From positions 78,083 through 142,082 of the forward strand of contig CAVYDB010000007.1 of assembly GCA_963767125.1 (NCBI GenBank): a stretch of DNA of 64,000 nt. Direction: 5' to 3'. The notes under the pieces are model-generated. The model was not told the origin of the DNA and ran no database searches. It worked only from the letters and a program-made list of their open reading frames with translations. The position numbers and the translations under genes are program-made. The DNA comes from an uncultured Bacteroidota bacterium. GTDB lineage: Bacteria; Bacteroidota; Bacteroidia; JABEUT01. Position 1 is the first letter of the stretch; every line of letters begins with the position of its first letter. This document shows positions 45,994 to 62,392 of this stretch, in pieces.

Positions 45994-46037
45994 CAAAATT
46001 AAAGTATGGAATATTACCTTTCTGAAAAGTCATTGAC
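45994..46037 (-). promoter_or_regulatory. Composite late promoter
   Basis: Core GTCATTGAC at 46029-46037, a 27-nt gap, then TAATTTTG (minus strand, 45994-46001). It lies 45 nt upstream of ATG 45948. Confidence 0.55.
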
Positions 46038-46069
46038 CAGTTACCGGAATTTTTTGTTTAGGTTAATAC

Positions 46070-46600
46070 CTATTCAAAACTTTCATCATAAGAAGGAAGG
46101 TCAAAACTCCCGCCCGGTAAATCAATGCCTGAAACACTTTCGCCCGTGCTGAAAATAACACCCATACCCGTAGTACGGTTCCATAGGCTGCTATTAAGTA
46201 TATGGGTGCTGTCGTACTTAAACTGTTGCAAATAAGCCCGGGTACTAAAATATACATTATTATCTATCATCAGCTTTACCTGTTTATCTAATGTGCCATA
46301 AGTCTGCAGGCATACATCAAATATATTTTGTCCGTCCATGCCCATCCAGCTATATTGGGTTAAAGGCAGTGCAGTATTTGATAAAACAGGGCCGGGAGAT
46401 AAAAAGGCTGTTACCAACACAGGGGCATAATAAATACGCTGTCCTGCCATCCGGCTTATATCAGCATCTATAGATGGGATGAGCGCGCTATTGTCAGAAA
46501 CGAATGCCACACTTTTCTCCAACGAGCCATAAACATCCATGATGAGGCTAAAAATATCGGAAGGGTTTTGGATTAGTTTATAATTCATAATGTTCGCCAT
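46070..46600 (-). CDS. Hypothetical tail protein with two LysM-like half-repeats
   Basis: The track start is TTG 46624; an ATG is at 46600. The internal repeats are DIFSLIMDVYGSLEKSVAFVSDN and NIFDVCLQTYGTLDKQVKLMIDN. Confidence 0.4.
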   Translation of the reverse strand: MANIMNYKLIQNPSDIFSLIMDVYGSLEKSVAFVSDNSALIPSIDADISRMAGQRIYYAPVLVTAFLSPGPVLSNTALPLTQYSWMGMDGQNIFDVCLQTYGTLDKQVKLMIDNNVYFSTRAYLQQFKYDSTHILNSSLWNRTTGMGVIFSTGESVSGIDLPGGSFDLPSYDESFE

Positions 46601-46682
46601 ATTATCAATTGAAAAAATTTGCAAGTTTTATAAAAGTTACAAGCCTGAAAAGCTACCTCATTACTGTTTACTTTATGAACTT

Positions 46683-47579
46683 TTAAATTAATTGCGGACC
46701 GTGCGTTATAGCGCCGTTTTCTATATCACCCGGCCGGGTTAGTATCAAACTTCCCGCCACATCTGCCGCTACAGGTGGTAACCCGGTAGTGGATGGGCTT
46801 CCCGGAACATAGCCTACCGCAAAACTATGCCATGCTGATACAAGAGTATTAACCAAATTTTCCAAATTATTTAATTTCTGTGCCAAGTTAGATGCTATGG
46901 GTATTCCATTATAGCTTCCATCATTAAGTTGCATAGTTCCGCTGCAACTTATTAATATTCCATTATCACTATTTGATGGCGGAGCGGTGCTATTGTTTAT
47001 CACTATCCCATTACCGGTATTTGATACCGGGCCTGTTCCACTGCTTATTACTACGCCATTATTTCCTATGCTGTTTGAAACAGAGCCCCCACCGCTTGAA
47101 ATAACTACACCGTTTCCGCCCCCGTCAATTATTTGTATGCCTAATGGTAAAGATGAATTGAATGTTGAATTGCAGTTTATTACAAATTCTTCGTATGTGC
47201 CATCAAGGTTTTTCTGGTGAAATACCAGTGCATCTATTTCAGAGCACATAAATACATATACCTCTTTCCTAAGGGTTATTGCAAGTATTACATTACTATT
47301 TACTTTGGGTACCTGAATAAATCCGTTACTCGCCCTTTCAGCTGTCAGTTGAATATTGGTATAGGTATTTTTAGCAGAGCCGCTCGCCATACCGGTAGCT
47401 ATCCGGGCTTCAGTAGCGCCGGTATTTCCGCTGATTAGCCGGGCGGTGCATAGCCAATTTGCTGTATCTACGCTTACAACTTTAGCTATTTCAAAGCTGA
47501 GCAGGTCTTTATCATAAGTACCTGCCAGCAGTTGAACGGCTCTTTGAACAGAGCCTGCATCTTTTTTTAAGTGGCTCAT
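46683..47579 (-). CDS. Central spike / baseplate protein V-like (OB-fold N-terminus + beta-helical repeat)
   Basis: The N-terminal EIAKVVSVDTANWLCTARLISGN... resembles a gpV/gp5 OB fold. The middle part has ~8-residue periodicity: GNGVVISS GGGSVSNS ...GVVISS GTGPVSNT GNGIVINN. Confidence 0.45.
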   Translation of the reverse strand: MSHLKKDAGSVQRAVQLLAGTYDKDLLSFEIAKVVSVDTANWLCTARLISGNTGATEARIATGMASGSAKNTYTNIQLTAERASNGFIQVPKVNSNVILAITLRKEVYVFMCSEIDALVFHQKNLDGTYEEFVINCNSTFNSSLPLGIQIIDGGGNGVVISSGGGSVSNSIGNNGVVISSGTGPVSNTGNGIVINNSTAPPSNSDNGILISCSGTMQLNDGSYNGIPIASNLAQKLNNLENLVNTLVSAWHSFAVGYVPGSPSTTGLPPVAADVAGSLILTRPGDIENGAITHGPQLI

Positions 47580-47598
47580 AATTTTTTGGGGAGGTAGC

Positions 47599-47994
47599 TT
47601 ATTTGGGTTTTGACGTGGCAGGAATGAATCCGAATTTTTGGGAAAACTTCACCAGCCAGCCGCCGCCCTTGAATTTATTTATTTTTGGCTTTTTATAAGG
47701 TGCAGTTGAAACAGGCTGAACAATAGGATTTACAGTAATATAATTTGTTTTAATTATATCATTAAGTCCTGTTTTATTTGATACTGCAAGCTGAACCGTA
47801 TAAACACCGGGAGTATAATAAGTAATAACTGGAATACGAGAGGAGTCATAATAGTCAACTATACTTGGCGTACCGCCAATAAATAACCAGGACCAGTCTT
47901 CGGGGTCGTTGAGGGATAAATCAGTAAAGGTGACAGAAGCCCCAACAGGGATTATGGTTTTATCAGCTTCAAAATTGGCTACCGGAAGGGGCAT
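47599..47994 (-). CDS. PKD domain phage protein
   Basis: VANFEADKTIIPVGASVTFTDLS...YYTPGVYTVQLAVSN is PKD-like. Confidence 0.6.
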   Translation of the reverse strand: MPLPVANFEADKTIIPVGASVTFTDLSLNDPEDWSWLFIGGTPSIVDYYDSSRIPVITYYTPGVYTVQLAVSNKTGLNDIIKTNYITVNPIVQPVSTAPYKKPKINKFKGGGWLVKFSQKFGFIPATSKPK

Positions 47995-48003
47995 AGGGCA
48001 GGA

Positions 48004-48483
48004 TTAGGAGAGGATAGTGCCGTAGATGTACATTTCACAGGTTAACGGGTTGCCTTCGGGAATGCCTAATGAAAGATACAATTGTTGTCCGACCAATTTT
48101 CCACCATATGTACCATCTGGACCACCATAAGGTGTTAAAACCGCTCCTGCAGCAAAAGAGGTAACTACACCATTATTGACATATGACAAGTTGCTATTAA
48201 GAAGTTGTAATGCATCTGGGCTTGCAAGAGATGATGACATTATTGAAATGCCTGTTCGACCTTCTAATGACCAAATTTGAGCATCTGAAGCTACTGTTAC
48301 AGGTGTTGTTGGATTGGATAAAACTATATCTGTAATAATAAATGAAGTTCCTCCCTTCAAAATTATCGGTTGGTCGGTAATGACATTAAGATCAATTATT
48401 TGTTGTGCAATCAATAAAAAAGCGGGCTGAGCTGAACTTGAATTTATTGCTTTTTCAAGAATCTTATCGGTTTGGGTATTCAT
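48004..48483 (-). CDS. Hypothetical phage structural protein
   Basis: 159 aa, first gene of a late transcription unit. No motif. Confidence 0.45.
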   Translation of the reverse strand: MNTQTDKILEKAINSSSAQPAFLLIAQQIIDLNVITDQPIILKGGTSFIITDIVLSNPTTPVTVASDAQIWSLEGRTGISIMSSSLASPDALQLLNSNLSYVNNGVVTSFAAGAVLTPYGGPDGTYGGKLVGQQLYLSLGIPEGNPLTCEMYIYGTILS

Positions 48484-48542
48484 GTTTTAATTTTTAGTAT
48501 GGAAATTGGAATTAATATTACAATAGAACATTTATTTGTCCG

Positions 48543-48586
48543 CAAAGAAGGTATAGAAAATAGTGTTTAGATAAAAAGTCAATGAC
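48543..48586 (-). promoter_or_regulatory. Composite late promoter, degenerate -7 box
   Basis: Core GTCAATGAC at 48578-48586, a 27-nt gap, then CTTCTTTG (minus strand, 48543-48550). The TTTG is kept but the TA is lost. Confidence 0.4.
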
Positions 48587-48818
48587 TATAACATGAGTTA
48601 TATCATTAGTAATAAGTAGTAAAACTATGCCAAGATAATACTTCAAAATGTATGGCAATACAAGACCAAAATAAAGAAGGAATAGCTTGAAGAATATTAT
48701 TCAAAGATCAACAAGTGGCAATTACAGACAAGTATTTTAAAATTAGAAGGGGATCTTGGTATCCTTTAGTAAATTTGCTCCGATTATATTATAATGAATA
48801 TTAATAAGTAAATTCGAA

Positions 48819-50456
48819 TTGAGTAAGATAAAAAAGATAGAAATTGAACTTCCTACCATTTTCCTTTGGCTAATAATCCTTCTTGTTAGCATGATCCGGT
48901 ACAGGCTCATTTCGGTTCCATTTGAAAGAGATGAAGGTGAATATGGCTATATAGGAAATTTGATTTTACATGGGATTGCACCTTTTAAAAACGGATATAC
49001 AATGAAACTTCCCGGCACCCCGTTTATGTATGCAATTTTTATGTTCGTATTTGGACACACAAATACGGGAGTCCATCTGGGGCTTCTCTTCATAAATGCC
49101 GGAACAATGTATTTTCTATTTCAAGCATTTAAAAAAATATTCAATCCCATATTAGGCCTTTCGACTGCTATTATTTATGGCTTTATGGCACTCAATAATG
49201 TATTTATTGGCTTTGCCGCACACGCCACACATTTTATTTGCTTTTTTAGTTCTGTCGCACTTTTGTTTCTTGCCAGCTTTATGGAGTCCGGTAAAATTTG
49301 GAAAATTATTCTTTCCGGTCTTTTCTTTGGCATGGCATTTCTAATGAAGCAACAAGCTATTTTCCTGATATTATTTGGCGTAATATTTCTATTTATGTAC
49401 CTGAATACTGAAAAAAAACGAAATTTAGCCGGAATAATAAAGAAGATTTTTGCATTTGGTTTAGGGGTTATTACTCCATATTGTATTGTAGTTTTAATAG
49501 TGATCGTTAGTGGAGAATTTCATACATTCCTGCTTTGGACTGTTGAATATGCCTCTCAGTACGAAAAGGTAAAAGCCACCCATGATGTTACTGTAATGGA
49601 AATTATCGGTGCTTATTTTAAAAGCACTTTTATACCTGCCTGGGATTCTCTTTATTACATTTGGATAATAGCATCAGGTGGAGTATTGACTTTATCTTGG
49701 AGCCCTTACTCACGTTTGCAAAAATTATTTGTGTTGTTATACCTTATTTCTTCTACATGTATGGTAAGTGCAGGGTTCTACTTTCGCCAACATTATTATA
49801 TTGTAATTTTACCAGTACTTGGATTACTCTCAGGAATATTTTTAGAGTTTGTTATTAAACAAGGACAAAAAAGAATAGGAATTTTAAAGTCCCCGAATGT
49901 TATTTTTATATTCCTTTCATTGCTTATCTCCTTTAATATCTATACAAACAGGAAATACTATTTTAGTTATACTCCTTTGATGGTTTGTAATAGTAGTTAC
50001 TGGGGCAATCCTTTTGATATAGCCCAAGAAATATCAAAGTACATTAAAGATAACACTAATGATTCTGATAAGATTGCCGTTCTGGGTTCAGAACCGGAAA
50101 TTTATTTTTATGCAAATCGAATTGCTGCTACCGGATACCTTTATACTTACCCCTTGGTGGAAAATCAACCTTACAATGAAATAATGCAGGAACAAATGAT
50201 AGGGGAAATAGAAAAAAATAAACCTGTTATTGTCATATTTAGCGATGTACTCTTTTCCTGGATGGCGGAAGATGGAACTCCCCAGGCAATATTTCAGTGG
50301 TGGGAAAACTATAAAACCGGCTACACAATTGTCGGCATAGCCGATTTTTTTCAGCATGGCGGGTGGAAATTTTATGGAAATGATAATATGAGCAGCCGTG
50401 TAAGCGGAGCCGACGGCACCCTTATTATTTACCGAAGAAACCCGGAGAATAAATAA
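48819..50456 (+). CDS. Polytopic membrane glycosyltransferase, ArnT/PMT (GT39/GT83-like) family; moron
   Basis: 545 aa, TTG start, at least 10 TM helices. The first-loop acidic motif is VPFERDEGEYGYIG and there is a soluble C-terminal domain. It is on the opposite strand to all surrounding phage genes. Confidence 0.6.
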   Translation: MSKIKKIEIELPTIFLWLIILLVSMIRYRLISVPFERDEGEYGYIGNLILHGIAPFKNGYTMKLPGTPFMYAIFMFVFGHTNTGVHLGLLFINAGTMYFLFQAFKKIFNPILGLSTAIIYGFMALNNVFIGFAAHATHFICFFSSVALLFLASFMESGKIWKIILSGLFFGMAFLMKQQAIFLILFGVIFLFMYLNTEKKRNLAGIIKKIFAFGLGVITPYCIVVLIVIVSGEFHTFLLWTVEYASQYEKVKATHDVTVMEIIGAYFKSTFIPAWDSLYYIWIIASGGVLTLSWSPYSRLQKLFVLLYLISSTCMVSAGFYFRQHYYIVILPVLGLLSGIFLEFVIKQGQKRIGILKSPNVIFIFLSLLISFNIYTNRKYYFSYTPLMVCNSSYWGNPFDIAQEISKYIKDNTNDSDKIAVLGSEPEIYFYANRIAATGYLYTYPLVENQPYNEIMQEQMIGEIEKNKPVIVIFSDVLFSWMAEDGTPQAIFQWWENYKTGYTIVGIADFFQHGGWKFYGNDNMSSRVSGADGTLIIYRRNPENK

Positions 50457-50500
50457 TATTTCGGAAATTTATTATACTAAACCCTTTCTGCGTATTTGCT

Positions 50501-51799
50501 TTACATTGCTTGTTGTAAAACGGCAGAGGGGATATTGTCAGTACGGAAATGCAGTTCAATATCCTGGCGTAATCCACTATCAATACTGAAAGAATGGTGG
50601 ACGGCTTTAACCATATAATGTCCGTTACGTTCGGGTAAAAGGCTGTCGCTGATATAAATAATATTGCCATGCTTAATAAAAGGCAAGCCAAATGTTTTGC
50701 TTCCCCTGAAACCATCGTAATGGTATCGGTTGAGATATGTTATTCCCCGGCTTTTTAATGTTTTACAATCGGGTGCATTTTTAAAATAAAAAATATAATA
50801 TTCATAATCGCTTAAGTTACTGCTCCCGGGAATGCTGACTGTAGCCTCCAGGCGTTTTGTCAGGAATTGGGTGGCCCCCATTTTATTTGTCTGTTGCTGG
50901 TTTTGTGCAAGGCTGGAAATGGAATAGCAAAGGGCGGCTACTTTCACATCATTTTTAAGGCTATATTGAAGCTGGTGGGAAATAATATTTTTCTGAAAGT
51001 TAAAACTGCTATATAGTGGGTTGCCGGTATTATCGGTTCCCGCAGACTGGTCCCGGGGGTAATACACCACACCGCCGCCGCGAAGGGTACCATCCCTGAA
51101 ATAAAAAGCCAGCGAAGGGAGTATTTTTTTAAGTTTGTTCAGCGCTACGGCGGCAGATTCATTACCTGTTGAAAAGCCTTCTACACCAAGTGTGAAGCCA
51201 CCTGTATCTGCGGTTATGAGGTACTCATTATTCACAAGATTTGAGGCTTTAACAATATCATTCAAAACATCGTTAATATCATTTTCAGGCGAGGTATATA
51301 TTTTAGATGGCATAGTGGTTTGCTTAAGCAGCCACATAAAATCTTCGCAATGAATTTTCAGGGTGCTTTTACTTTCAAGAGAGGAAACAAAACCATGAAA
51401 TACATTGTTGGTTGTTGAGGCATAAGTAAGGGTTCCATCGGTATTTACTTTTGAAATATAGGAATATCCTGCGGTAATTATTATTTCATCTCCCCTCATA
51501 ATCAGCGGGGCTTTTGATGCCTGCGGATTGGCAAATCCCCCGGCGCTTATATATCCTTTCGTTCTATCAGGAGTGGTGGATTCACCCCACATTATATTGT
51601 TATTGTTGGCATCTTTCACATAAATATTTTTGGGTATCTCGATAGTAGCAGTATCTGACAAAGATTTCCAGGAACTGTAAACCTCAAAGGAATGGCAGGA
51701 GTCAATGTCAAAAATTTCATTTCGGGGAATAGAATTGCCACTCGCATCGGCATAAGCCGTTACCTGGATAAGTTTTATTTTTACTATACATTGCAACAT
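50501..51799 (-). CDS. Baseplate hub / late-control-D-like tail protein candidate
   Basis: 432 aa. The segment order resembles gpD/gp27-type hubs (..DTATIEIP.., RGDEIIITAGY.., VFHGFVSS..LKIHCED). This is a weak, memory-based call. Confidence 0.35.
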   Translation of the reverse strand: MLQCIVKIKLIQVTAYADASGNSIPRNEIFDIDSCHSFEVYSSWKSLSDTATIEIPKNIYVKDANNNNIMWGESTTPDRTKGYISAGGFANPQASKAPLIMRGDEIIITAGYSYISKVNTDGTLTYASTTNNVFHGFVSSLESKSTLKIHCEDFMWLLKQTTMPSKIYTSPENDINDVLNDIVKASNLVNNEYLITADTGGFTLGVEGFSTGNESAAVALNKLKKILPSLAFYFRDGTLRGGGVVYYPRDQSAGTDNTGNPLYSSFNFQKNIISHQLQYSLKNDVKVAALCYSISSLAQNQQQTNKMGATQFLTKRLEATVSIPGSSNLSDYEYYIFYFKNAPDCKTLKSRGITYLNRYHYDGFRGSKTFGLPFIKHGNIIYISDSLLPERNGHYMVKAVHHSFSIDSGLRQDIELHFRTDNIPSAVLQQAM

Positions 51800-51873: not shown

Positions 51874-52416
51874 TCACCCGTTTAGCAGGGTAGGATATTT
51901 ATTGGTATCTATTTCACGCATATTAAATTTTATCTGCTGTTCGCCTATATTGCCTGCCTGTTGCGGAATTTCGTAGCCGGTTACTATAGCATATTCTATT
52001 TGAAATTGGTTAAGGTACCAGCTATTAATTTGAACGGGCTGGTTACTTTCGAGCAGCAGGTAAAAATTATCTATATCATTCAGGGGGTACTTTAAATTAG
52101 AGCCATAAATTTTTACAGTACATGATATTTCAGCGCTGTCTTCACCCGTATATTCAAGCAAGTCTCCATCCGCTCCATCAATACTTGTAACAATAATCCG
52201 TTTTCTTTTTTTTACTGTAAAAATAGCATCAGGTATTTGAATGGCATTATAGCTGATGGGTTTTCCATCCTTCCAATAAGTGCCTGCGGAAATATTTAAA
52301 TCAGAATATACCGGCGTGCCGAGGGGGCTGTTATATAATGCCGGTGAAGCCCCCGGAAAATTAGAAAAAGCTGATGCGAAAAGGGCTACGGATAAAGGCC
52401 CTGTGAAAGCGGTCAT
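51874..52416 (-). CDS. Phage structural protein, paralog 2 of tandem pair
   Basis: 180 aa, about 58 percent identical by eye to the 52429-52971 product. Confidence 0.5.
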   Translation of the reverse strand: MTAFTGPLSVALFASAFSNFPGASPALYNSPLGTPVYSDLNISAGTYWKDGKPISYNAIQIPDAIFTVKKRKRIIVTSIDGADGDLLEYTGEDSAEISCTVKIYGSNLKYPLNDIDNFYLLLESNQPVQINSWYLNQFQIEYAIVTGYEIPQQAGNIGEQQIKFNMREIDTNKYPTLLNG

Positions 52417-52428
52417 AGTATTAATAGT

Positions 52429-52971
52429 TCAGGCATTCAGTAACCGGGGATATTGATTGGGATTCAAATGGCGCATACTAAATTTCACCTGCTGATTGCT
52501 TATGTTACCTATTTGTTGCGGAAGTTCATACCCCGTTACCACAGCATATTGAATTTCCAACTGGTTAAGATACCAGCTATTTATTTGAATTGGCTGGTTG
52601 CTTTTAAGTACCAGGTAAAAGTTATTCACCTCATCCTTCGGGTAGTTTAGGTTGGTTCCGTAAATCTTAATCGTACAGGAAATTGTTGCGCTCTCAGACC
52701 CATTATATTCAAATACATTGCTGGCAGCGCCATTTATACCGGTGGTTTTTATCCGCTTTTGTTTTTTTACTACAAATAAAGCATCGGGTAGGTTTATCGG
52801 GGTATAACTTATTGTTTTACCGTCCACCATGTAAGAGCCTGCGGCAATGCTTAAATCTGAATAAACAGGGGTTTCGATAGGGCTTTTATATAATCCACCG
52901 GTATCTCCTTTAAAATTTGAAATACCCGCTTTGGAAATGGCAATGGATATAGGTTCGGTAAAAGCAGTCAT
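52429..52971 (-). CDS. Phage structural protein, paralog 1 of tandem pair
   Basis: 180 aa, MTAFTEPISIAISKAG...INSWYLNQLEIQYAVVTGYELPQQ. First gene of a late unit. Confidence 0.5.
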   Translation of the reverse strand: MTAFTEPISIAISKAGISNFKGDTGGLYKSPIETPVYSDLSIAAGSYMVDGKTISYTPINLPDALFVVKKQKRIKTTGINGAASNVFEYNGSESATISCTIKIYGTNLNYPKDEVNNFYLVLKSNQPIQINSWYLNQLEIQYAVVTGYELPQQIGNISNQQVKFSMRHLNPNQYPRLLNA

Positions 52972-53082: not shown

Positions 53083-53126
53083 CAAAAATAGATGCCGGGA
53101 AGGTGCTTTTAAAAAAAGTCAATGAC
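53083..53126 (-). promoter_or_regulatory. Composite late promoter
   Basis: Core GTCAATGAC at 53118-53126, a 27-nt gap, then TATTTTTG (minus strand, 53083-53090). Confidence 0.55.
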
Positions 53127-53170: not shown

Positions 53171-53178
53171 TACTTTTG
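53171..53178 (+). promoter_or_regulatory. -7 box TACTTTTG for the plus-strand lipoprotein moron
   Basis: Matches TAnnTTTG, 20 nt upstream of ATG 53198. Confidence 0.45.
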
Positions 53179-53197: not shown

Positions 53198-53791
53198 ATG
53201 AGAGAACATAAAATATGGAACCTGTTTAAAGGGGTTTCGGGAATGGGCATAATAATTTTAATTTCAATTCTTTTTATGCAAACCGGGTGCGACCAAATTG
53301 TATGGACCGGCGGCGATACCTCTAAAGATAGCCTTCAGCAAAAAAAGACGGTGGTACAACCCCAGCATACTTCACATGGCTTTAAGGATACCGGTAAACG
53401 GATTGCTGCACCGAAATCATTTTCCATCCAGCAATTATCATTGGGGGAAGTGGGGAACCTTTTAACCGGAACATGGGCCCCGGCCGATGGAGATACAGTA
53501 CCTTATTTCTGTTATGAAACTTATAGGGATGGGCAACGCTATGACAGTATTAAACATCATTCTAAAGATTCTGCTTACATTAAAATATGTGAAGATGATA
53601 CCTTGAAATACCGGCTCTTATCTGAACGCCCTTCTCGTATAAGTGAATTTCCGTGTCTCTGCTATATTTCCCTCGAAGGTGATGCCGGAAAGTATGAGTA
53701 CATGGCAATTTTGCGCATTACCAGGGATTCCCTCTTTCTTACAGATGGTAAAGATAAAGACTACTATAACGTTTGTGTGAAAGTACATTGA
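53198..53791 (+). CDS. Lipoprotein moron (opposite strand to late genes)
   Basis: Signal IIILISILFMQTGC. 197 aa, no motif. Confidence 0.55.
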   Translation: MREHKIWNLFKGVSGMGIIILISILFMQTGCDQIVWTGGDTSKDSLQQKKTVVQPQHTSHGFKDTGKRIAAPKSFSIQQLSLGEVGNLLTGTWAPADGDTVPYFCYETYRDGQRYDSIKHHSKDSAYIKICEDDTLKYRLLSERPSRISEFPCLCYISLEGDAGKYEYMAILRITRDSLFLTDGKDKDYYNVCVKVH

Positions 53792-53922: not shown

Positions 53923-55203
53923 TTATTGCAAGTCTGTGCTAATCCGTGAATCTGAAACAGCGGAGGTTAAAATTGCCAGTAGCTCATCCTGAATATCAGT
54001 AGGAGCATCTACAGCATGTGTATGGTAACTATCATTGGTATTTACATTTACAGAGATATTACTGCTACTGCCTCCTCCCCGGGAACTGCGTGGCTGGGAA
54101 ATATTCCCCGTTCCCGGTATTTCAAAAGATGTACCCGGAGAGTGAGGCTTAACTCCATTCTTTGTTTTCGCAGTTTTGGGTTTCAAATAATGATGATGTA
54201 TCTGCCCAATGCTGCCGCTATGGACGGGTTTTCTACTTAAAGGTGTGTATACCGAATTTTTTAGTGATTGGTAATTCGGCTCTCCCTGGTTAAGCTGCTC
54301 TGCCAATCTACGTATGGCTGAATACTGCATGCCTTGCTTCAAATTAGCCCCCGCAAATTGAGGAACAAAAGGAGGGGGAGTATATGTTGCATTAATAGGA
54401 GGAGCAGTGCGGTTATTTCCTTTAATGTACCAACTATACTTGTCAGACTGACCCGTTTGAAGTTCTTGTTGCATACGAATGATATAGCTCCGTTCATCAA
54501 AAAATTCATTTACGGTATTTATATCCTTCTTTTCCCTTTGCTCTTGCTTTTGAGTAAGTGTATTCGTTGACATAGAAAGGGCGCCAACTTCACTTATGTA
54601 AGGATTTATCTTAGACTGCAAATCTGCTAGTTTTTCTTTAGTTAATTCAATATCCCTAACTAAAATTCCTTCCATAAGGGTATCGTGTAAATAAGTAGCA
54701 TACCTGGGATGATTTACAGGGTCATAGGAATACAAACCCGAATCTAATGCGGACAAAGAGGCACTATCTTGCCTTAATAAAGGTCGTAAATGTATATACT
54801 GCTTATCCGTTTCAATTAAATTTACTCCAGCTTCTTCACCCTCTCTTTTATTATCAAATATCCGGTTGATTTGAGTACCCGGTATTTTTATTCCCCAATA
54901 GTTATTTTGTTTAACAGACTTTTTATATTGAATAGAATCTCCATAGCCGGATTCATTTGCTGATAAAGTAAGCATCAAAGCAGAACCCATTACACTATAT
55001 CCTTTACGCCGTGCGTAAGCATATATTTCATACCCCACGTCATTAAAGTATGATTCATGGTTCTGTGTAATCGGGTATTTTCGATTACTGTTAAACCCCC
55101 ACCAATTAGTCAGGTCCACACTATCTTTTGTGGGGGCAGGGTATATACGTTTAGCCGTCTTTTTTTCTTTGGGTTTCCCCATACTTCTCTTTTTACCACT
55201 CAT
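53923..55203 (-). CDS. Tail-associated peptidoglycan hydrolase (glucosaminidase-like domain); tape-measure candidate
   Basis: MGSALMLTLSANESGYGDSIQYKKSVKQNNYWGIK resembles the FlgJ/glucosaminidase motif (..ESG.G.S......NN.FGIK). A helical middle and a Ser/Gly-rich C-terminus follow. It lies downstream of the chaperone pair. Confidence 0.45.
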   Translation of the reverse strand: MSGKKRSMGKPKEKKTAKRIYPAPTKDSVDLTNWWGFNSNRKYPITQNHESYFNDVGYEIYAYARRKGYSVMGSALMLTLSANESGYGDSIQYKKSVKQNNYWGIKIPGTQINRIFDNKREGEEAGVNLIETDKQYIHLRPLLRQDSASLSALDSGLYSYDPVNHPRYATYLHDTLMEGILVRDIELTKEKLADLQSKINPYISEVGALSMSTNTLTQKQEQREKKDINTVNEFFDERSYIIRMQQELQTGQSDKYSWYIKGNNRTAPPINATYTPPPFVPQFAGANLKQGMQYSAIRRLAEQLNQGEPNYQSLKNSVYTPLSRKPVHSGSIGQIHHHYLKPKTAKTKNGVKPHSPGTSFEIPGTGNISQPRSSRGGGSSSNISVNVNTNDSYHTHAVDAPTDIQDELLAILTSAVSDSRISTDLQ

Positions 55204-55284
55204 TTTATATTCCGATAAGAAACGTGCAAAGTAAATATACCCATTAAAAGAGCGTTTTCTTAATAGGTCATTAACTTATCTGTT

Positions 55285-56806: not shown

Positions 56807-57232
56807 TTAGCTGTTCCAGTTAATATTTCCTATCAGCAGGGGAATTTTCATCACCAGTTTTTTATCATTTGTTTTTGCTGAAAAAGGGTTTTTCATAAAT
56901 ACGCAGCTTTGCAGGGTATCTATGGTTAATGCCTGGCTGGTGTTACCATATATCACTTTAATGGTGAATGCCGGTATAAGCTGTATTTTCCCTAATGGAG
57001 CCAGCGCAATAATATTGTTTATTTCCTCTTTGAAAAGCTCGATGGAGCCGGTGTATTTAAACTGACCATAGCCTTGCCCTATGGGAAAGTTGCCGGCGCC
57101 ATAGTTGTTTTCCATGGCTTGCTCTTCATCATATTCTATAGATGTGATGCCTACCAGTGGTGTAGTGCCGAAAAGCATTACCTGCACGTCGCCCCAGCTG
57201 TAATTAATGCCGTTTATAAGTGGATTTGCCAT
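56807..57232 (-). CDS. Tail tube protein candidate
   Basis: 141 aa, lying between the sheath-sized gene and the chaperone pair. Positional call. Confidence 0.5.
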   Translation of the reverse strand: MANPLINGINYSWGDVQVMLFGTTPLVGITSIEYDEEQAMENNYGAGNFPIGQGYGQFKYTGSIELFKEEINNIIALAPLGKIQLIPAFTIKVIYGNTSQALTIDTLQSCVFMKNPFSAKTNDKKLVMKIPLLIGNINWNS

Positions 57233-57288
57233 ATTTTTAAATTAATTTGATGATTTGGTAATTTGAAGATTTGATAATACTGTGAACT

Positions 57289-58869
57289 TTATAAGCTGAC
57301 TGCAAATTGAAGGTTAATGACTATTTCCCTTGCTACGCCCACCGGTTGCAGCAATACAGTTACTACCAGCGTACTTGTGCTTAACACATTTTGCGCCGGA
57401 TTAATATTCACTTTAAAGCCACTTAATTCCGGCCGGCCGGTATTGGGGTTTGTTTGAGCCATATTACTCAGCGCCTGTTCACCAATTCCTTCAAAAAAAG
57501 CAACGGTGGAATTAGTCAGTGTCCCATCGGCATTTACCGTTAATGGGGCAGCGAGTTGCTCAATATAGGCTGCATATAACTGGCGTGAAGCTTTATCGAA
57601 TGTGCGGTTATTTTCAATATAGGCGTAATCGGAGGTATAGGCTGTGCAGCAATGCGAATCATTTACATACGTTCCGTTCGGACTGTCGTTTATAAACTGC
57701 CGCCCGAAGATATACCGGAATGCATCCACCGAATTAATAGTGCCCGCGCTTAATGTACTTAATAATTCAGGTGTAACTCCAGCCCCACTAATGGTAGTGG
57801 CAAAAGCAGGAACGGCATTTTCTATTCCATCGGGGCTTAAGGTATAAGTGGCTACCCAGGCTATATCGTCAGAAACCTGCGATGCCGAAACCAGGCCCAA
57901 CACATCGCCAAGCTGGGTAACTGAAAAACCTTGTGCATAAAATATTCCTGCTCCTGTAGCCGCCCCATCCTGACCTATTACCAGGCTCACATGCTCTGAA
58001 CCTAATATGGAGAGGTCACTTAAACCGGAGGCGCCGTTGGTAAGGGTTGCAAAATCAGTCCCCACAATGGCGCTTAACGGGGCATTATTGGCTATCAATG
58101 TTTTTATTTGTGCTTCAATAGCGGTTACATAATCCAACGTTTGCTCTAACGTGGAAAAAGGGGTAGGTATATATACGCCTAATTGCCTTATGGCGCCGCC
58201 TGCAAAAGCCTGCATGCTCCCTACTTCGGGGAAAGCATAAGCATCTCCCGGCGATTCATCGAATATTCCAACATATAAGGTGGAATTGGGACTTTGGGTA
58301 AAGTACCGGTTTATATGATACCAGGTATTTAAAACCGAAGCTATACCCCCGGAAAAATTATGCGTCATGGTTCCTGCAATCGTTCCGGTGATATTCACGC
58401 TTAAAGGGGTATTCGGCGAGTTTGGGTATAGCCCAAGCCCGGGGCGTGCCTTAATAGTAACTGCCCCTGCCGTATTACTTGCAGTGTAGCCTGTTAAATT
58501 CGTATTGATGGCTTTAACGATACTATCTGCCAGAAGAGTGACAGAAGTATCGCCCGCTGAACGGGTATAGGTACACAATGTTATTAAATTGGTGTACTCC
58601 TGCACCTGGAATACCATAGTATCACCCGCTGCTCCGTATCCGGTTATTGTATATTCGGCAGTAGCTGCATCTTCATCTGAATAGTTTCCGGCAGATACCG
58701 GTATTATTCCTGCATTGATAGCATCCTGTATCCCGCCGAATTTGGCAATTCCCCCGGAAGGAAACAGAGTGGGCGCCGTGCCATAAAATACCAACCCGGA
58801 AATAAAATCCTGCCCTGATGGTTGCCGTCCAAGCCCGCCCTGTCCCCTGTTTATTATTACGTTATTCAT
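57289..58869 (-). CDS. Tail sheath protein candidate
   Basis: 526 aa, first large gene after the head genes, followed by the tube-sized gene and the frameshifting chaperone. Positional call, no named motif. Confidence 0.45.
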   Translation of the reverse strand: MNNVIINRGQGGLGRQPSGQDFISGLVFYGTAPTLFPSGGIAKFGGIQDAINAGIIPVSAGNYSDEDAATAEYTITGYGAAGDTMVFQVQEYTNLITLCTYTRSAGDTSVTLLADSIVKAINTNLTGYTASNTAGAVTIKARPGLGLYPNSPNTPLSVNITGTIAGTMTHNFSGGIASVLNTWYHINRYFTQSPNSTLYVGIFDESPGDAYAFPEVGSMQAFAGGAIRQLGVYIPTPFSTLEQTLDYVTAIEAQIKTLIANNAPLSAIVGTDFATLTNGASGLSDLSILGSEHVSLVIGQDGAATGAGIFYAQGFSVTQLGDVLGLVSASQVSDDIAWVATYTLSPDGIENAVPAFATTISGAGVTPELLSTLSAGTINSVDAFRYIFGRQFINDSPNGTYVNDSHCCTAYTSDYAYIENNRTFDKASRQLYAAYIEQLAAPLTVNADGTLTNSTVAFFEGIGEQALSNMAQTNPNTGRPELSGFKVNINPAQNVLSTSTLVVTVLLQPVGVAREIVINLQFAVSL

Positions 58870-58943
58870 GTGTGTTTAAAGTTTAATTATTAGTTATTAT
58901 AAATATGTTTTACTGTTTTATTTTCTTATTTCATAGGTCACCG

Positions 58944-59414
58944 CTACTTCACCAGCTTTTGCAAGGCTTCCGTTATTGCTTTCACGGGGCTGTCTTCGTC
59001 ATTATCTGTTTCAGCTTTTTGTTTTGCCTTCATTGCCCTTTGTTCTGCTTTGTATGCCGAAATAATTTCATCTTTGTTTTCCAGTACCTCGTCCCTGGAG
59101 TATTCCTTTATCACTGCTTTACGAGCAATATATTTTCCGGCTAACAAAACTTTCTTCTGTCTTTTACCCTGCTTTATCAGCGTAGCCTCGGTTGCTATTT
59201 TAGGGTCGAGGTCAACATATTCATGCAGGTCGCCCCCGGGGGAGAAGAAATACCCATCGGAAGTGATATACACCCGGCTGACATGCCCGCATAGCGCATG
59301 CTCAAGCGCATTGATAAGATTATACGCCTGCAGGCTGGTCAGTTCGGGAATTGGGTTTCCCTGAAAGAGGCTTTTTTCAACTTTAACAATAGGGTTAAGG
59401 GTTTTTACCGGCAT
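58944..59414 (-). CDS. Hypothetical head-tail joining region protein
   Basis: 156 aa with a Lys/Glu-rich C-terminal tail. Confidence 0.4.
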   Translation of the reverse strand: MPVKTLNPIVKVEKSLFQGNPIPELTSLQAYNLINALEHALCGHVSRVYITSDGYFFSPGGDLHEYVDLDPKIATEATLIKQGKRQKKVLLAGKYIARKAVIKEYSRDEVLENKDEIISAYKAEQRAMKAKQKAETDNDEDSPVKAITEALQKLVK

Positions 59415-59509
59415 TTTATTAGAGATTGATTATTATTGATTAGCTATAAGATGTTAGATAAAAGATAGTTGAAAACCACCTGTTAATTCCACCGTGTATT
59501 ACTTCCTTT

Positions 59510-59995
59510 TTAGTTTCCTGCCATGTACGAGGTTTCCCTCCAGGCATTTCCATCGAACATGAAAGTGATGTGATATGACTTTTTGGCTGCCACCGGGATA
59601 TTCAAATTAAAACCTTTAAACCCTTTGGTGAAGATGACGTGCTTTCTGAGAAAAAGCGTATCGGCGCCTACACACTGGAATTCGATTTTATCGCAAACAT
59701 TGCTGCGGGTAGTATTCGCATATAAGTACAAGGTGTCTTTTATGCTATCGCCCGGCTGTATAAAAGTTTCAAATCCGTGGGGAGTAAATTTTGCCGTATC
59801 GTGGTACCCGGTATCTTTTGGGGTATAATAATAATAAGTAAGCACCCTGCCTGTATTGTCGTCATTGGGTACTATACCGAAACGGGGAGATACGTTTTGG
59901 GCGAAACAGCTGAACGCAATTAAGTTGAAAGCAAATATAACTCCGCCGGATTTCAGAATTTTTGAAATACTATTTCTTATTTGATTTTTCTTCAT
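59510..59995 (-). CDS. Secreted protein inserted between capsid and tail genes
   Basis: Signal GVIFAFNLIAFSCFAQ. 161 aa, no motif. Confidence 0.5.
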   Translation of the reverse strand: MKKNQIRNSISKILKSGGVIFAFNLIAFSCFAQNVSPRFGIVPNDDNTGRVLTYYYYTPKDTGYHDTAKFTPHGFETFIQPGDSIKDTLYLYANTTRSNVCDKIEFQCVGADTLFLRKHVIFTKGFKGFNLNIPVAAKKSYHITFMFDGNAWRETSYMAGN

Positions 59996-60106
59996 GATTT
60001 TATTTTTTTAACTTTTTTAATATATACTTTTTATCTTTTCGGGGTATTCCCCCGGAAGACTGTTTCCAATACTCCGGGGTATTTACCCTAATCAACCCTA
60101 TGAAAA

Positions 60107-61123
60107 TTAATGTGTAATATTTGTGAATAGTACCATTTGGTCGCCCCAGCCGTGGTTTACATCCACTTTAAAAATCCCTTTTACATACCACAGGTCGCTG
60201 GGATTGCTGGTTTTTTTCATTTCAAGTTGAACATCATCGGTACTGTTTACACCAATCCAAAGGTTGCTTTGAATATCCGGTCGCCCGACGGTAAGGAACA
60301 TGGTTCCCGGGTTCAATCCTGCCAGCGGAACAATATCGTGACCTTTATACCGGTTGATACCGCTTTGGGTGGAGTCAATATTCTTATGCGCATCCTGACG
60401 TAAGGCCTCTTCGTAAATATCCTGGTCGGAATAACTCATAAAATATCTCAATCCTAATGGACCGTAACGATAGCATAAAGCTTTGCTGAGGGTATTATTC
60501 ATAAGGGTTTGGCGCATGGAAGTAAGCCTGTCCCTTATATTGGTGTAATCGTAGGATGTCCAGGAAAGGGTTTGTACCGTGGAATCACTTAATGCCTTGT
60601 AAAGGAACCCGTCGAACATATAGTCGGCATTGGTCTGTAACGTATTGTCGGTATAGCCTTTGCCGGTGGGAGCCACATTAGCTCCTGCGGGGTCAAACAT
60701 CAATCGTGAATTCCAGAATGCTGTTTCAAAATATTCGTTCAGGCGCTTCATGTATTGCAGCATAATGAAGTTCTCTGCTGTTGGGGGCAGCGTGCGGTCA
60801 ATGAGCCTGTCTTGTTCAAATTGTTCAGCGAAAAAATGCTGTTCAAAATCGGCAGGATTAAACTCCTGGTACATTTCAAACTTTTGGGGATCGAGTACAC
60901 GCCCATCCACCGTTATGTTCCCTGAGCTTACGGGAGTTGCAGCATAATGCTGTATTAGCCCGCTTACTTCCACACGCGGTATGGTTACTTGCTTGCGGAT
61001 TCCATCTACCACGTTGGCACAACCTTTTACTATTGTGTCCACGTCAACAACAGCGCGGGTTATCATATAGTCGAGTGCGGGACCCGACCAGCTTGTGTCT
61101 GTAATATTCAGTACGTCTGCCAT
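60107..61123 (-). CDS. Major capsid protein
   Basis: 338 aa, immediately downstream of the protease-scaffold gene. Size and position are typical; no motif checked. Confidence 0.65.
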   Translation of the reverse strand: MADVLNITDTSWSGPALDYMITRAVVDVDTIVKGCANVVDGIRKQVTIPRVEVSGLIQHYAATPVSSGNITVDGRVLDPQKFEMYQEFNPADFEQHFFAEQFEQDRLIDRTLPPTAENFIMLQYMKRLNEYFETAFWNSRLMFDPAGANVAPTGKGYTDNTLQTNADYMFDGFLYKALSDSTVQTLSWTSYDYTNIRDRLTSMRQTLMNNTLSKALCYRYGPLGLRYFMSYSDQDIYEEALRQDAHKNIDSTQSGINRYKGHDIVPLAGLNPGTMFLTVGRPDIQSNLWIGVNSTDDVQLEMKKTSNPSDLWYVKGIFKVDVNHGWGDQMVLFTNITH

Positions 61124-61161
61124 GTTAATTTATTTAAGATTTAAAATTTATGAACTACGAT

Positions 61162-62298
61162 TTATTGTTTCTGTTTTTCACTGATTGTCCTGCGCTTTGC
61201 TGCCATAAATGAGCCAATATTTACAGGCTGTTCCATCCCTCCGGCATTTTCAATATGAATTTTTGCAGCAGCCCGGTAAGAGGATAACCCATCAATGAGA
61301 GAGCGGGTGCGGTCTTTATCGGCTACATATAAATCGACCCAGGCATTTTTAGCTTCAGCTTTTAGCTTGCCCGTTTTTACTGCCTCATTCACCACTGTTT
61401 CAGCCTCTGCTTTTAGTACAAGGGCTTCGGCTTCCTTCCTTTTATTCTTCAAAGTTTCAGCTTCCAGTTTGGTTACTTTACACTCCTCTTCCATCGCTGC
61501 ATACTTCTCTCTCAGCTCAGTCAATTCTTTTTCTTTAGCTACAATGGTCTCTGAAAGTTTATCCAATTCTTCATTAGATGGGATGCTGTTCTTAATAGCT
61601 TTCACAGCTTTGATGAATTCCTTTTCCGAAGCATTTTCCGGAAGTTCGAGCAGGTTTGCAAGTCCTTTCATATATTCTGTTTGTTTTGATTCAATACTAT
61701 TTACCACTTCCAGCAGTTTTTTATGGGCTGCCTGTGGAGTAGTTTTATTGGTGATTTTTGGCAAATTGGCATCAGTGGTAATGTCCACAATCTCATCTAC
61801 CAACTTATTTTCCAACGATTCTTCAGCGTTCAGCCAGGAGGTTTTGTCCATTAAATCACTCATCTCCGATTCTGAAATTCCTGTACGCGGGCAAAGCATT
61901 TTTATAAGAGTTTCTTTCAGGGTATCTAACTCTTTGCTATCGCCTCCGCTGGGGTTGTGAAGCATTACCTGTCCCCAGGGAACCATTTTGCGGGTTCTGC
62001 CTGCCTGGAGAATTACACCAGCCATACTTACTGCTATACCCACACATACCGTATCTACCGGAATGGTGCAGGATTTGATAGCAGAATAAATAGTCATGCC
62101 ATCTATAATAGAACCGCCGAGGCTATTGATGTGAACCTCTATCCCTTTTTTAGCTTGCTTTTCAAGACACGTTAAATATTCCGCAAACTCTTTCCCGCTA
62201 ATCCCGCTAATGGTACCATCTTCATTACGCTCCTCCCCTATTACATCGTAAAGTTGCAATACCGGGATTTCGTCGTTTTCGTTTTTACAGAATATCAT
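61162..62298 (-). CDS. Prohead protease (ClpP/S14-like) fused to scaffold-like coiled coil
   Basis: The N-terminus is IEVHINSLGGSIIDGMTIYSAI...VCVGIAVSMAGVILQAG...VMLHNPSGG, the ClpP-fold Ser/His context. The C-terminal 170 aa are Glu/Lys/Ala-rich coiled coil. Confidence 0.8.
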   Translation of the reverse strand: MIFCKNENDEIPVLQLYDVIGEERNEDGTISGISGKEFAEYLTCLEKQAKKGIEVHINSLGGSIIDGMTIYSAIKSCTIPVDTVCVGIAVSMAGVILQAGRTRKMVPWGQVMLHNPSGGDSKELDTLKETLIKMLCPRTGISESEMSDLMDKTSWLNAEESLENKLVDEIVDITTDANLPKITNKTTPQAAHKKLLEVVNSIESKQTEYMKGLANLLELPENASEKEFIKAVKAIKNSIPSNEELDKLSETIVAKEKELTELREKYAAMEEECKVTKLEAETLKNKRKEAEALVLKAEAETVVNEAVKTGKLKAEAKNAWVDLYVADKDRTRSLIDGLSSYRAAAKIHIENAGGMEQPVNIGSFMAAKRRTISEKQKQ

Positions 62299-62337
62299 TT
62301 TTGTATAGTGAATACTATTTTATTTTCATTCACGTTG

Positions 62338-62392
62338 CAAAAATAAATGGTGAAAAAGGGTGTTCATAAAAAGTCAATGAGAAGTCATTGAC
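62338..62392 (-). promoter_or_regulatory. Composite late promoter with duplicated palindrome
   Basis: Cores GTCAATGAG (62373-62381) and GTCATTGAC (62384-62392). A 27-nt gap separates the first core from TATTTTTG (minus strand, 62338-62345). It lies 39 nt upstream of ATG 62298. Confidence 0.6.

What the first reader, a model, noticed from the sequence alone, without database searches (positions are those of the whole stretch)
45994..62392. Composite promoter GTCAWTGAC-N26/27-TAWTTTTG heads the late transcription units (and the distant terL)
Seen directly: five intergenic sites share a two-part architecture on the minus strand, the strand of the late genes. Each has the palindromic core GTCAWTGAC (with an A-run on its + strand 5' side), then 26-27 nt, then a Bacteroidota -7 box. 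The sites, given as + strand coordinates of core / box, are as follows. (1) 62373-62381 plus a second core 62384-62392 / 62338-62345 TATTTTTG, before the prohead protease. (2) 53118-53126 / 53083-53090 TATTTTTG, before the paralog pair. (3) 46029-46037 / 45994-46001 TAATTTTG, before the fibre-candidate gene. (4) 48578-48586 / 48543-48550 degenerate CTTCTTTG, before gene 48483. (5) 10487-10495 / 10453-10460 TATTTTTG with a 26-nt gap, before the isolated terL. A 9-mer with one two-fold degenerate position is expected about 0.5 times in 64 kb at equal base frequencies (64000 x 2 / 4^9). I found five exact copies by eye, all intergenic, four with the same spacing to a -7 box. The distance is too long for the normal -33 TTG element. 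It therefore looks like the site of a late activator or alternative sigma, and it splits the late region into at least four units. Caveat: one-mismatch variants without the fixed spacing occur at 21260-21268 (upstream of ferritin), 55267-55275, 44642-44650 and 41938-41946.
Basis: seen in the sequence. Interest (0 to 1): 0.72.

Follow-up and report, generated by a model that had tools for sequence, protein, structure and literature searches.

The report
Shared late-gene promoter with palindromic operator
A Mu-like prophage of a Bacteroidota bacterium heads each block of virion genes, and a terminase gene about 32 kb from the nearest other virion gene, with the same promoter: a 9-bp palindrome a fixed 27 bases upstream of the host-type -7 box, which probably binds a small phage-encoded activator; this is a new example of a familiar kind of phage late-gene control.

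Summary
GTCAWTGAC occurs 5 times (0.19 expected), always between genes. The composite core-N26-28-TAnnTTTG occurs 4 times exactly, against 0 in 300 shuffles. A matrix trained only on related genomes recovers seven window sites at 31-46 bits (random maximum 20.7).

The same architecture heads shuffled late-gene units in every close relative, and terL operons in relatives whose terL is 51% identical. The spacer sequence diverges; the core, the T-run and the 27-nt gap do not.

The palindrome centre falls near -44, as for the phage Mu C activator (-43.5). The 75-aa orphan protein (62492-62719) is the best candidate binder. It co-occurs with the motif and carries the motif in its own promoter. Its diverged homologues in two sister lineages sit beside different operators in the same geometry.

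Activation rather than repression is inferred, not shown. The protein's fold is unresolved. An alternative sigma is disfavoured.

Verdict: a new variant of a known kind, of moderate interest. It is unresolved why terL and ferritin lie among host-like genes.

The parts
62373..62381 (-). Promoter-proximal core (CTCATTGAC, 1 mismatch) followed by TTTTT. Operator of the protease/head-tail unit.
   Evidence: 27 nt to the box at 62338-62345. PWM 38.3 bits. Tandem cores 11 nt apart are also present in L001, L002 and L163.
62338..62345 (-). -7 box TATTTTTG of the unit protease 61162-62298, capsid 60107-61123, sheath 57289-58869, tube 56807-57232.
   Evidence: The box ends 39 nt before the protease ATG.
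62384..62392 (+). Distal exact core. Operator for the divergent promoter of the 75-aa gene.
   Evidence: 27 nt to TACCTTTG. PWM 30.6 bits. Core-N27/28-(T/G)ACCTTTG also stands before the 75-aa gene in L001, L002, L004 and L171.
62420..62427 (+). -7 box TACCTTTG of the 75-aa gene.
   Evidence: 64 nt before the ATG at 62492.
62492..62719 (+). 75-aa orphan protein, the candidate operator-binding regulator. Probably monocistronic, with a terminator-like hairpin at 62706-62730.
   Evidence: Present in all motif-bearing loci that cover this region. 63-100% identical across 19 clusters. Diverged homologues lie next to different operators in L165 and L164.
55267..55275 (-). Core variant GTTAATGAC. Operator of the 426-aa gene unit (53923-55203).
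   Evidence: PWM 31.6 bits. The same TATATTTA box type is found in L003, L006 and L080.
55232..55239 (-). -7-like box TATATTTA.
   Evidence: 27-nt gap; 28 nt to the ATG.
53118..53126 (-). Core before the paralog pair and the baseplate hub (52971 down to 50501).
   Evidence: PWM 46.0 bits, the best in the window. A homologous position carries the motif in L001, L009 and L163.
53083..53090 (-). -7 box TATTTTTG.
48578..48586 (-). Core before the unit 48483 down to 46070 (159 aa, PKD 131 aa, 298 aa, 184 aa).
   Evidence: PWM 38.1 bits despite the degenerate box.
48543..48550 (-). Degenerate -7 box CTTCTTTG.
   Evidence: Similar TA-less boxes (TTTCTTTG, TTTATTTG) occur at the terL promoters of L175 and L176.
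46029..46037 (-). Core before the fibre-candidate and lysis unit (45948 down to about 41996, including the GH108 endolysin 42879-43445).
   Evidence: PWM 41.4 bits.
45994..46001 (-). -7 box TAATTTTG.
41904..41946 (-). Weak candidate site: GTCATTGAT, 26 nt, TACCTTTA, before a 62-aa hydrophobic ORF (41695-41883).
   Evidence: Low PWM score because of the 26-nt register. Uncertain member.
21223..21266 (-). Full composite (GTTAATGAC-TTTA..., 27 nt, TATTTTTA) upstream of ferritin 20606-21157. A canonical TATATTTG box (21193-21200) lies 30 nt further downstream.
   Evidence: PWM 39.6 bits, third best in the window. Probable regulon member outside the structural cluster.
10481..10501 (-). Perfect 21-bp palindrome GGGAAAGTCAATGACTTTCCC containing the core 10487-10495. 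Operator of the terL promoter.
10453..10460 (-). -7 box TATTTTTG, 26 nt from the core and 238 nt before the terL ATG.
8841..10214 (-). Isolated, intact large terminase gene flanked by host-like genes.
   Evidence: Terminase_3, E 6e-46. The flanks are RibD_C and adenosine deaminase. Homologues 51% identical in L175 and L176 lie behind the same composite promoter.

Best explanation
The element is the late (virion-gene) promoter class of a lineage of Mu-like, contractile-tailed temperate phages of Bacteroidota.

Each promoter has two main parts:
- The -7 box of the host primary sigma factor (TAHHTTTG, positions -12 to -5).
- A palindromic operator, GTCAWTGAC. It is usually followed by TTTT and is often extended to GAAAAGTCAWTGACTTTTC.

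The gap between them is a rigid 27 (26-28) nt, which puts the dyad centre near -44. A dimeric, element-encoded protein binds the operator and helps RNA polymerase from that fixed position, in the way phage Mu C works at its four late promoters.

The most likely binder is the 75-aa protein at 62492-62719. It is transcribed divergently from the head operon, from its own operator-bearing promoter. At that locus two operators 11 bp apart each serve one of the two divergent promoters, which would give positive autoregulation.

Because every unit carries its own copy, units can be reordered, interrupted by cargo genes, or moved far away (terL) and stay co-regulated.

Shown: the motif, its statistics, its geometry, its conservation, and its co-occurrence and co-variation with the small protein.
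Inferred: promoter activity, the position of the transcription start, activation rather than repression, and the identity of the binder.
For: 1. Enrichment.
2. A PWM trained only on relatives finds 7 window sites at 31-46 bits, against a random maximum of 20.7.
3. In 31 non-redundant composite matches collected at a 27-nt gap (two of them probably chance hits inside coding sequence), the core, the T-run, an AAA block and a T-block are conserved, while the rest of the spacer is not. The -7 box and the 27-nt gap were selection criteria for that set. That the gap is really fixed rests on the scans that allowed 24-30 nt: nearly every match is at 27, with a few at 26 or 28.
4. All sites point at the next gene start on the same strand, 20-238 nt away.
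5. In relatives the motif heads homologous units even where the unit order differs. It also heads terL operons.
6. Relaxed composite density is 2.6 per 10 kb in loci with the 75-aa gene and 0.22 per 10 kb in 164 other loci.
7. The motif is absent from L164 and L165 (sheath 57% and 51% identical), which lack the close 75-aa form. These carry diverged homologues at the same divergent position (35% identity for L165; for L164, 16% in the alignment and 45% to the L165 protein). They also carry other operators in the same geometry:
   - L165: TGTTTACCT, in tandem 11 nt apart, then N28/29 and TACTTTTG, at two late promoters.
   - L164: TGTCCGC-N5-GCGGACA, then N27 and TAGTTTTG, plus a half-site at a second promoter.

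8. Numbering of the -7 box comes from PMC6847099. The Mu C site, centred at -43.5, and the requirement for the adjacent downstream bases come from PMC2582627.
9. The protease carries Mu-like_Pro_N, and relative L164 has Portal_Mu and Mu F.
Against: - There are no transcription data and no binding data.
- The -7 boxes are near-consensus, and host-like promoters here also lack a -33 TTG. The promoters might therefore be strong on their own and need repression, not activation.
- The 75-aa protein has no detectable DNA-binding domain. Pfam and PHROGs gave nothing. A PDB sequence search gave nothing. The AlphaFold model is only moderate (pLDDT 72). Foldseek found nothing significant. hhalign against a hand-typed ribbon-helix-helix set gave 0.2% probability.
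- A regulator that sits behind its own target promoter needs an unidentified trigger.
- The co-variation rests on only three lineages. Any other lineage-specific factor would co-vary in the same way.
Confidence: 0.6

Rival explanations
1. The palindrome is a repressor operator. The promoters are intrinsically strong primary-sigma promoters. A dimeric protein, possibly the autoregulated 75-aa protein, keeps all late units silent until induction by blocking upstream contacts of RNA polymerase.
For: - The -7 boxes are near-consensus, and the -33 element is generally absent in this organism (PMC6847099).
- Small autoregulated proteins encoded next to their operators are typically repressors (general knowledge).
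- Tandem operators 11 bp apart suggest cooperative binding.
Against: - The site lies at -48 to -40, upstream of the core promoter rather than over the -7 box or the start site.
- A gap fixed to within 1 nt across about 30 independent promoters with divergent spacers is what a stereospecific contact with polymerase predicts. It is not needed for steric repression.
- A separate S24 (CI/LexA-type) repressor is already present at 26790-27416.
Confidence: 0.2
2. The site belongs to a host transcription factor, for example a stress- or iron-responsive one. This phage lineage has plugged its late genes into that host regulon.
For: - A high-scoring site stands before a ferritin gene among host-like genes.
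- terL with the motif also lies among host-like genes.
- No DNA-binding domain was recognised in the 75-aa protein.
Against: - In roughly 36 kb of host-like DNA in the window, only ferritin and terL carry the motif.
- Motif presence tracks the 75-aa gene, and sister lineages have other operators.
- The 75-aa family is tiny and linked to the element (19 clusters among 5.8 billion proteins).
Confidence: 0.1
3. The composite is read as a whole by an alternative or phage-modified sigma factor, with the core/T-run as an upstream element and the box as the downstream element.
For: - The architecture is rigid and bipartite.
- There are extra conserved A and T blocks in the spacer.
Against: - A 26-27 nt gap is too long for known sigma -35/-10 pairs.
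- The downstream element is the signature box of the primary Bacteroidota sigma (PMC6847099).
- A palindrome suggests a dimer, not a sigma domain.
- No Sigma70_r2 or r4 domain was found in any scanned ORF of the window.
Confidence: 0.05

Closest known systems
Phage Mu late promoters (Plys, PI, PP, Pmom) activated by the C protein (Mor/C family)
   Same: - Several separate late promoters head the lysis, head (protease) and baseplate units.
- A dyad-symmetric site is centred about 43-44 bp upstream.
- The bases just downstream of the dyad also matter.
- The host primary sigma is used (PMC2582627).
- The element here is Mu-like in its protease. A sister lineage (L164) carries Portal_Mu and Mu F; no portal was found in the window or in the motif-bearing loci.
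   Different: - The operator sequence is unrelated.
- The core promoter is the Bacteroidota -7 type.
- No Mor/C homologue was found among the scanned ORFs.
- The candidate regulator is a 75-aa orphan that sits behind the same kind of promoter, divergent from the head operon.
- Here the regulon includes a terL about 32 kb from the nearest other virion gene, and possibly a ferritin gene.
Class II activator-dependent promoters (CRP/FNR at -41.5)
   Same: A dimer site abuts the upstream edge of the core promoter at a fixed distance. The promoter-proximal flank is more constrained than the distal one.
   Different: The core palindrome is only 9 bp (half-site centres 5 bp apart), although many copies extend to 19-21 bp. 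There is no CRP/FNR-type protein or motif.
GafA/CtrA-controlled multilocus gene transfer agent of Rhodobacter (PMC5026251)
   Same: Virion genes lie at more than one chromosomal locus and are tied together by a common regulator. The regulator is autoregulated (general knowledge).
   Different: Most genes here are still in one prophage-like cluster with a CI-type repressor, an endolysin and a replication-initiator-like gene. Nothing shows packaging of host DNA or vertical inheritance.
Hankyphage (Bacteroides phage p00), the nearest cultured relative by capsid protein
   Same: It is a Mu-like temperate Bacteroidota phage, and its protease-capsid operon starts at a divergent intergenic region.
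   Different: - Capsid identity is only 26%.
- Its divergent partner is the terS-terL-portal operon, not a small regulator gene.
- The GTCAWTGAC composite is not present in that region.

Membership tests
Bacteroidota primary-sigma promoters (-7 TAnnTTTG / -33 TTTG) | -7 box TAHHTTTG | tested here: met
   Exact at 5 of the 9 window sites. The other four carry one or two mismatches.
Bacteroidota primary-sigma promoters (-7 TAnnTTTG / -33 TTTG) | -33 TTG about 19-21 nt upstream of the box | tested here: not met
   There is no conserved TTG at that position in 31 sites. It is also absent from most host-like promoters of the window, and it is weak in F. johnsoniae (PMC6847099).
Bacteroidota primary-sigma promoters (-7 TAnnTTTG / -33 TTTG) | Transcription starts 4-5 nt after the box | not testable with these tools
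   Needs 5' end mapping.
Mu Mor/C-type activated late promoters | Dyad-symmetric site centred near -43.5 at several late promoters | tested here: met
   The centre is at -44 for a 27-nt gap, using the numbering of PMC6847099. The start site itself is inferred.
Mu Mor/C-type activated late promoters | Activator of the Mor/C protein family encoded by the element | tested here: not met
   No Mor-family hit in the scanned small ORFs of the early region, nor in the 75-aa protein. Parts of the element lie outside the window.
Mu Mor/C-type activated late promoters | Promoter inactive without the activator | not testable with these tools
   Needs reporter assays or in vitro transcription.
Ribbon-helix-helix regulators (Arc/MetJ/CopG), for the 75-aa protein | N-terminal strand plus two helices, recognisable by profile or by fold | tested here: inconclusive
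   By eye the sequence fits the pattern. The model has a coil at 1-14 followed by helices at 15-28 and 33-47. But Pfam found nothing, hhalign gave 0.2%, and Foldseek gave only non-significant hits, some of them ribbon-helix-helix proteins (E 2-10).
Gene transfer agents | Virion genes dispersed over several loci under one regulator | tested here: inconclusive
   terL lies about 32 kb from the nearest other virion gene, with host-like genes in between. In one relative the baseplate-J module stands alone beside the small gene. Other relatives have contiguous clusters.
Gene transfer agents | Random host DNA packaged; the element cannot transfer itself | not testable with these tools
   Needs particle purification and sequencing.
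Alternative (ECF-type) sigma promoters | -35/-10 pair at 16-17 nt spacing, and a cognate sigma gene | tested here: not met
   The gap is 26-27 nt, the downstream element is the primary-sigma box, and no sigma domains were found.

The most novel reading that the evidence does not exclude
The motif marks a dispersed regulon rather than a compact prophage. Virion-gene modules (terL here; the baseplate-J module in another genome) and at least one host-type gene (ferritin) are scattered among chromosomal genes. They are held together only by a trans-acting small regulator. This would be a phage on its way to domestication, or already a gene-transfer-agent-like particle producer, which has not been described in Bacteroidota.
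Probability: 0.12. Interest if true: 0.8.

Novelty: new variant of a known kind. Interest (0 to 1): 0.55.

Why it matters
- It gives a precise, testable pair for late-gene control in Bacteroidota phages, where almost nothing is known about transcription programmes: the operator GTCAWTGAC at -44 and a 75-aa candidate protein.
- The motif can be used to delimit transcription units and to find displaced members of the regulon, such as terL, in fragmented metagenomic genomes.
- Sister lineages with different operators in the same geometry suggest a family of orthogonal regulator/promoter pairs. These could become expression switches for Bacteroidota genetics.
- The isolated terL and the ferritin site raise the question of whether parts of such prophages are being dispersed or co-opted.

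Tried and rejected
- **Annotated relatives.** Megablast of the late region against 50,697 phage records found nothing. The protease alone found no relatives in IMG/VR.
- **Pattern scan of IMG/VR for the composite.** It gave three single hits that do not look like the promoter and are probably chance; two were not even in the promoter orientation on re-inspection. They were not followed up.
- **Terminator reading.** The scan flags the tandem cores at 62372-62393 as a hairpin followed by a T-run. I rejected this: no - strand gene ends nearby, and single cores cannot form a stable hairpin.
- **Mobile repeat or recent duplication.** Rejected because the spacers differ between sites within one genome.
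- **Pfam on neighbours of terL and of the small gene in relatives.** Only a weak DUF5681 hit.
- **Portal and terS.** Not found in the window or in the extension L170. The 360-kb parent contig could not be fetched.
- **Remnant of the two small genes upstream of terL.** I looked in the 238-nt leader and found none.
- **Hankyphage divergent region.** It has other palindromes, not this motif.
- **Literature.** Full-text search for the 9-mers returned only unrelated primers and a eukaryotic nuclear-receptor site.

Full report
**1. Observation**

GTCAWTGAC occurs exactly five times in the window: at 10487, 46029, 48578, 53118 and 62384. The expectation is 0.19, and no shuffle of 100 reached five. 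All five lie between ORFs. My ORF set covers 81% of the window.

On the - strand the sites read GTCAWTGAC-TTTT..., followed after 27 nt (26 nt at terL) by a Bacteroidota -7 box.

- Exact core with an exact box at 26-28 nt: four times, against 0.0 in 300 dinucleotide shuffles.
- One mismatch allowed in each part: nine times, against 0.59.

- 62373-62381 is a one-mismatch copy.
- The ferritin variant is at 21258-21266.
- Three of the four 'caveat' variants do in fact have the fixed spacing.

**2. Anatomy**

I compiled 31 non-redundant composite matches from the window and its relatives, all collected at a 27-nt gap. Two of them are probably chance hits inside coding sequence. They give this consensus:

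(A/G)GTCAWTGAC TTTT y N3 AAA acac TtTTT ca N5 TATTTTTG C

- Many copies extend the palindrome to GAAAAGTCAWTGACTTTTC. The terL copy is a perfect 21-mer.
- The promoter-proximal T-run is much better conserved than the distal A-run.
- In F. johnsoniae the box occupies -12 to -5 (PMC6847099). On that numbering the dyad centre is at -44, the T-run at -39 to -36, the AAA block at -31 to -29 and the T-block at -24 to -20.
- There is no TTG where a -33 element would be. Host-like promoters in the window lack it too, so this absence is not diagnostic.

**3. Context**

| Window region | Content |
|---|---|
| 42-62.4 kb, - strand | Late cluster of a contractile-tailed phage: protease with Mu-like N-terminus, capsid, DUF2586 sheath, tube, baseplate hub, fibre candidates, GH108 endolysin |
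| within that cluster, + strand | Two interrupting genes, one a PMT_2 glycosyltransferase |
| 26.8-31 kb | S24 CI-type repressor and a short early-like region with a replication-initiator-like gene |
| 31-41 kb | Five genes with the type IX secretion sorting domain |
| 0-26 kb | Host-like genes: FeoB, arylsulfotransferase, adenosine deaminase, S41 peptidase, TetR, ferritin, Arr, an IS fragment, tRNA-Cys |

- An intact terL (8841-10214) sits between RibD_C and adenosine deaminase.
- No portal or terS was found.
- A short contig from the same genome (L170) extends past 64000. It shows a baseplate-J module on the late strand, again headed by the composite.

**4. Full site list in the window**

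A weight matrix trained only on relatives scores the sites as follows. The maximum in 30 random windows was 20.7 bits.

| Site | Score (bits) | Note |
|---|---|---|
| 53126 | 46.0 | |
| 46037 | 41.4 | |
| 21266 | 39.6 | before ferritin |
| 62381 | 38.3 | |
| 48586 | 38.1 | |
| 55275 | 31.6 | |
| 62384 (+ strand) | 30.6 | faces the 75-aa gene |

- The sites at 10495 and 41946 have a 26-nt gap, so the fixed-register matrix scores them low.
- Every site faces a gene start 20-238 nt downstream.
- The late cluster therefore consists of at least five units: protease to the 256-aa gene; the 426-aa gene; the paralog pair plus hub; 159 aa to 184 aa; and fibre to lysis. In addition there are the J unit beyond the window, terL, the 75-aa gene, and probably ferritin.

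**5. Comparative evidence**

The sheath has no homologue above about 72% identity in the databases searched.

- The loci with a sheath 58-72% identical (L001-L009, L163, L171, from Bacteroidota genome bins and metagenomes) each carry 2-5 copies. These have the same orientation, the same 27-nt gap and the same tandem pair before the protease, while the spacer sequences differ.
- The order of units differs among these relatives. The motif travels with the first gene of each unit.
- terL homologues 51% identical (L175, L176) lie behind two small genes that are preceded by the same composite. The terL link is therefore ancestral, not a coincidence of this genome.
- Relaxed composite density is 2.6 per 10 kb in loci carrying the 75-aa gene, against 0.22 per 10 kb in 164 other loci.

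**6. The candidate factor**

The 75-aa gene (62492-62719) is present wherever the region upstream of the protease is covered in a motif-bearing locus.

- It is 63-100% identical within a family of only 19 clusters among 5.8 billion proteins. At 50% identity the family collapses to a single representative.
- It is always preceded by core-N27/28-(T/G)ACCTTTG.
- In the window the two cores 11 bp apart each lie 27 nt from one of the two divergent boxes.
- Relatives without the motif (L165, L164) have diverged homologues in the same position. They also have different repeated operators in the same geometry:
  - L165: TGTTTACCT, twice, 11 nt apart, then 28 nt to TACTTTTG before the protease; and again 29 nt before TACTTTTG at a second late gene.
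  - L164: TGTCCGC-N5-GCGGACA, then 27 nt to TAGTTTTG, plus a half-site at a second promoter.
- An unbiased search for 8-mers shared at this offset within a locus recovered the GTCAWTGAC loci with long overlapping runs and L165 with a three-8-mer run. A dozen other loci gave isolated shared 8-mers, up to a 10-mer in two of them, which I take to be chance.

This co-variation is the main argument that the small protein reads the operator. Its fold is unresolved. A ribbon-helix-helix pattern is visible by eye, but no test supported it.

**7. Mechanism and rivals**

The rigid distance to the -7 box across about thirty independent promoters argues for a stereospecific contact with RNA polymerase. 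So do the dyad position at -44 and the extra constraint on the proximal flank. Together they point to an activator acting like Mu C, whose 16-bp dyad is centred at -43.5 and needs the adjacent downstream bases (PMC2582627).

- A repressor reading stays open, because the boxes are near-consensus.
- A host factor is less likely, because the motif tracks the element.
- An alternative sigma is unlikely, given the box type, the gap length and the absence of sigma domains.

**8. Comparison and novelty**

Functionally this is a Mu-type late regulon. It is not a member of the Mor/C family as far as tested.

- The nearest cultured phage by capsid protein is the Hankyphage, at 26% identity. Its protease operon also starts at a divergent region, but it has other sequences there.
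- I found no publication of this motif.
- It is a new variant of a known kind.
- The unusual aspect is the reach of the regulon: a terL about 32 kb from the nearest other virion gene and about 42 kb from the protease promoter, lying among host-like genes; a ferritin gene; and, in one relative, a free-standing J module. I cannot tell whether this reflects rearrangement of a prophage, a second decayed prophage, or dispersal of a domesticated element.

Noticed in passing
window 21223-21266 and 20606-21157: A ferritin gene among host-like genes carries a full composite site (39.6 bits). A separate canonical -7 box (TATATTTG, 21193-21200) lies 30 nt further downstream, so it may have two promoters, one of them tied to the phage late regulon.
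   Followed up: partly
window 24979-25225: tRNA-Cys (25154-25225, - strand). Its 3' terminal 18 nt (TGAGGTCCCGAGCGGATT) is repeated three times at an 87-nt period (24979, 25066, 25153), like stacked attachment-site scars. Arr (rifampin ADP-ribosyltransferase, 24541-24960) and an IS1595 fragment (23308-23628) lie next to it.
   Followed up: partly
window 10233-10253 (- strand); also L001 2639, L004 6789, L056 (three copies), L163 2801, L175 1122: A REP-like GC-rich palindromic element, TTGCTTCGCG(A/G)AGCCTCGCAA, sits just upstream of the terL start codon. It recurs in non-coding spots of related contigs, including just before the terL of L175.
   Followed up: partly
window 25285-26679 and 31226-41023; L171 17283-20207; L173 157-2220: Genes for NHL or beta-propeller proteins with the type IX secretion sorting domain flank or interrupt the element here. 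Their homologues (45-57% identical) neighbour the element in two other genomes. This is a recurrent association of unknown meaning.
   Followed up: partly
window 51874-52416 and 52429-52971: The two 180-aa genes are 61% identical paralogs (DUF6046-like in relatives). Relatives have a single copy, so the duplication is specific to this genome.
   Followed up: partly
window 48819-50456 (+) and 53198-53791 (+): Two opposite-strand genes are inserted at unit boundaries inside the late cluster: a PMT_2 membrane glycosyltransferase and a 197-aa unknown. The palindrome 53118-53126 lies 44 nt upstream of the + strand box TACTTTTG (53171-53178) of the second gene, so its centre is near -61.
   Followed up: no
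window 63145-63693 (+): A second, short ClpP-family protease gene lies next to the 75-aa gene, on the strand opposite to the late genes. It is absent from this position in the relatives.
   Followed up: no
L165 6235-6290 and 17516-17561; L164 6365-6425 and 17262-17310: Sister lineages carry their own operators (TGTTTACCT; TGTCCGC-N5-GCGGACA) at the same distance from -7 boxes. This suggests a family of regulator/operator pairs.
   Followed up: partly
contig of sample ERZ1426579 (no DNA held): In this relative the 76-aa gene and the baseplate-J module stand alone between a sialate esterase-like gene, secreted-protein genes and an aldo-keto reductase, without the protease-capsid-sheath module nearby.
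   Followed up: no
window 10215-10452: terL has an unusually long (238-nt) leader with no ORF. Relatives have two small genes there, one a weak DUF5681 match and a possible small terminase, which are missing from the window.
   Followed up: partly
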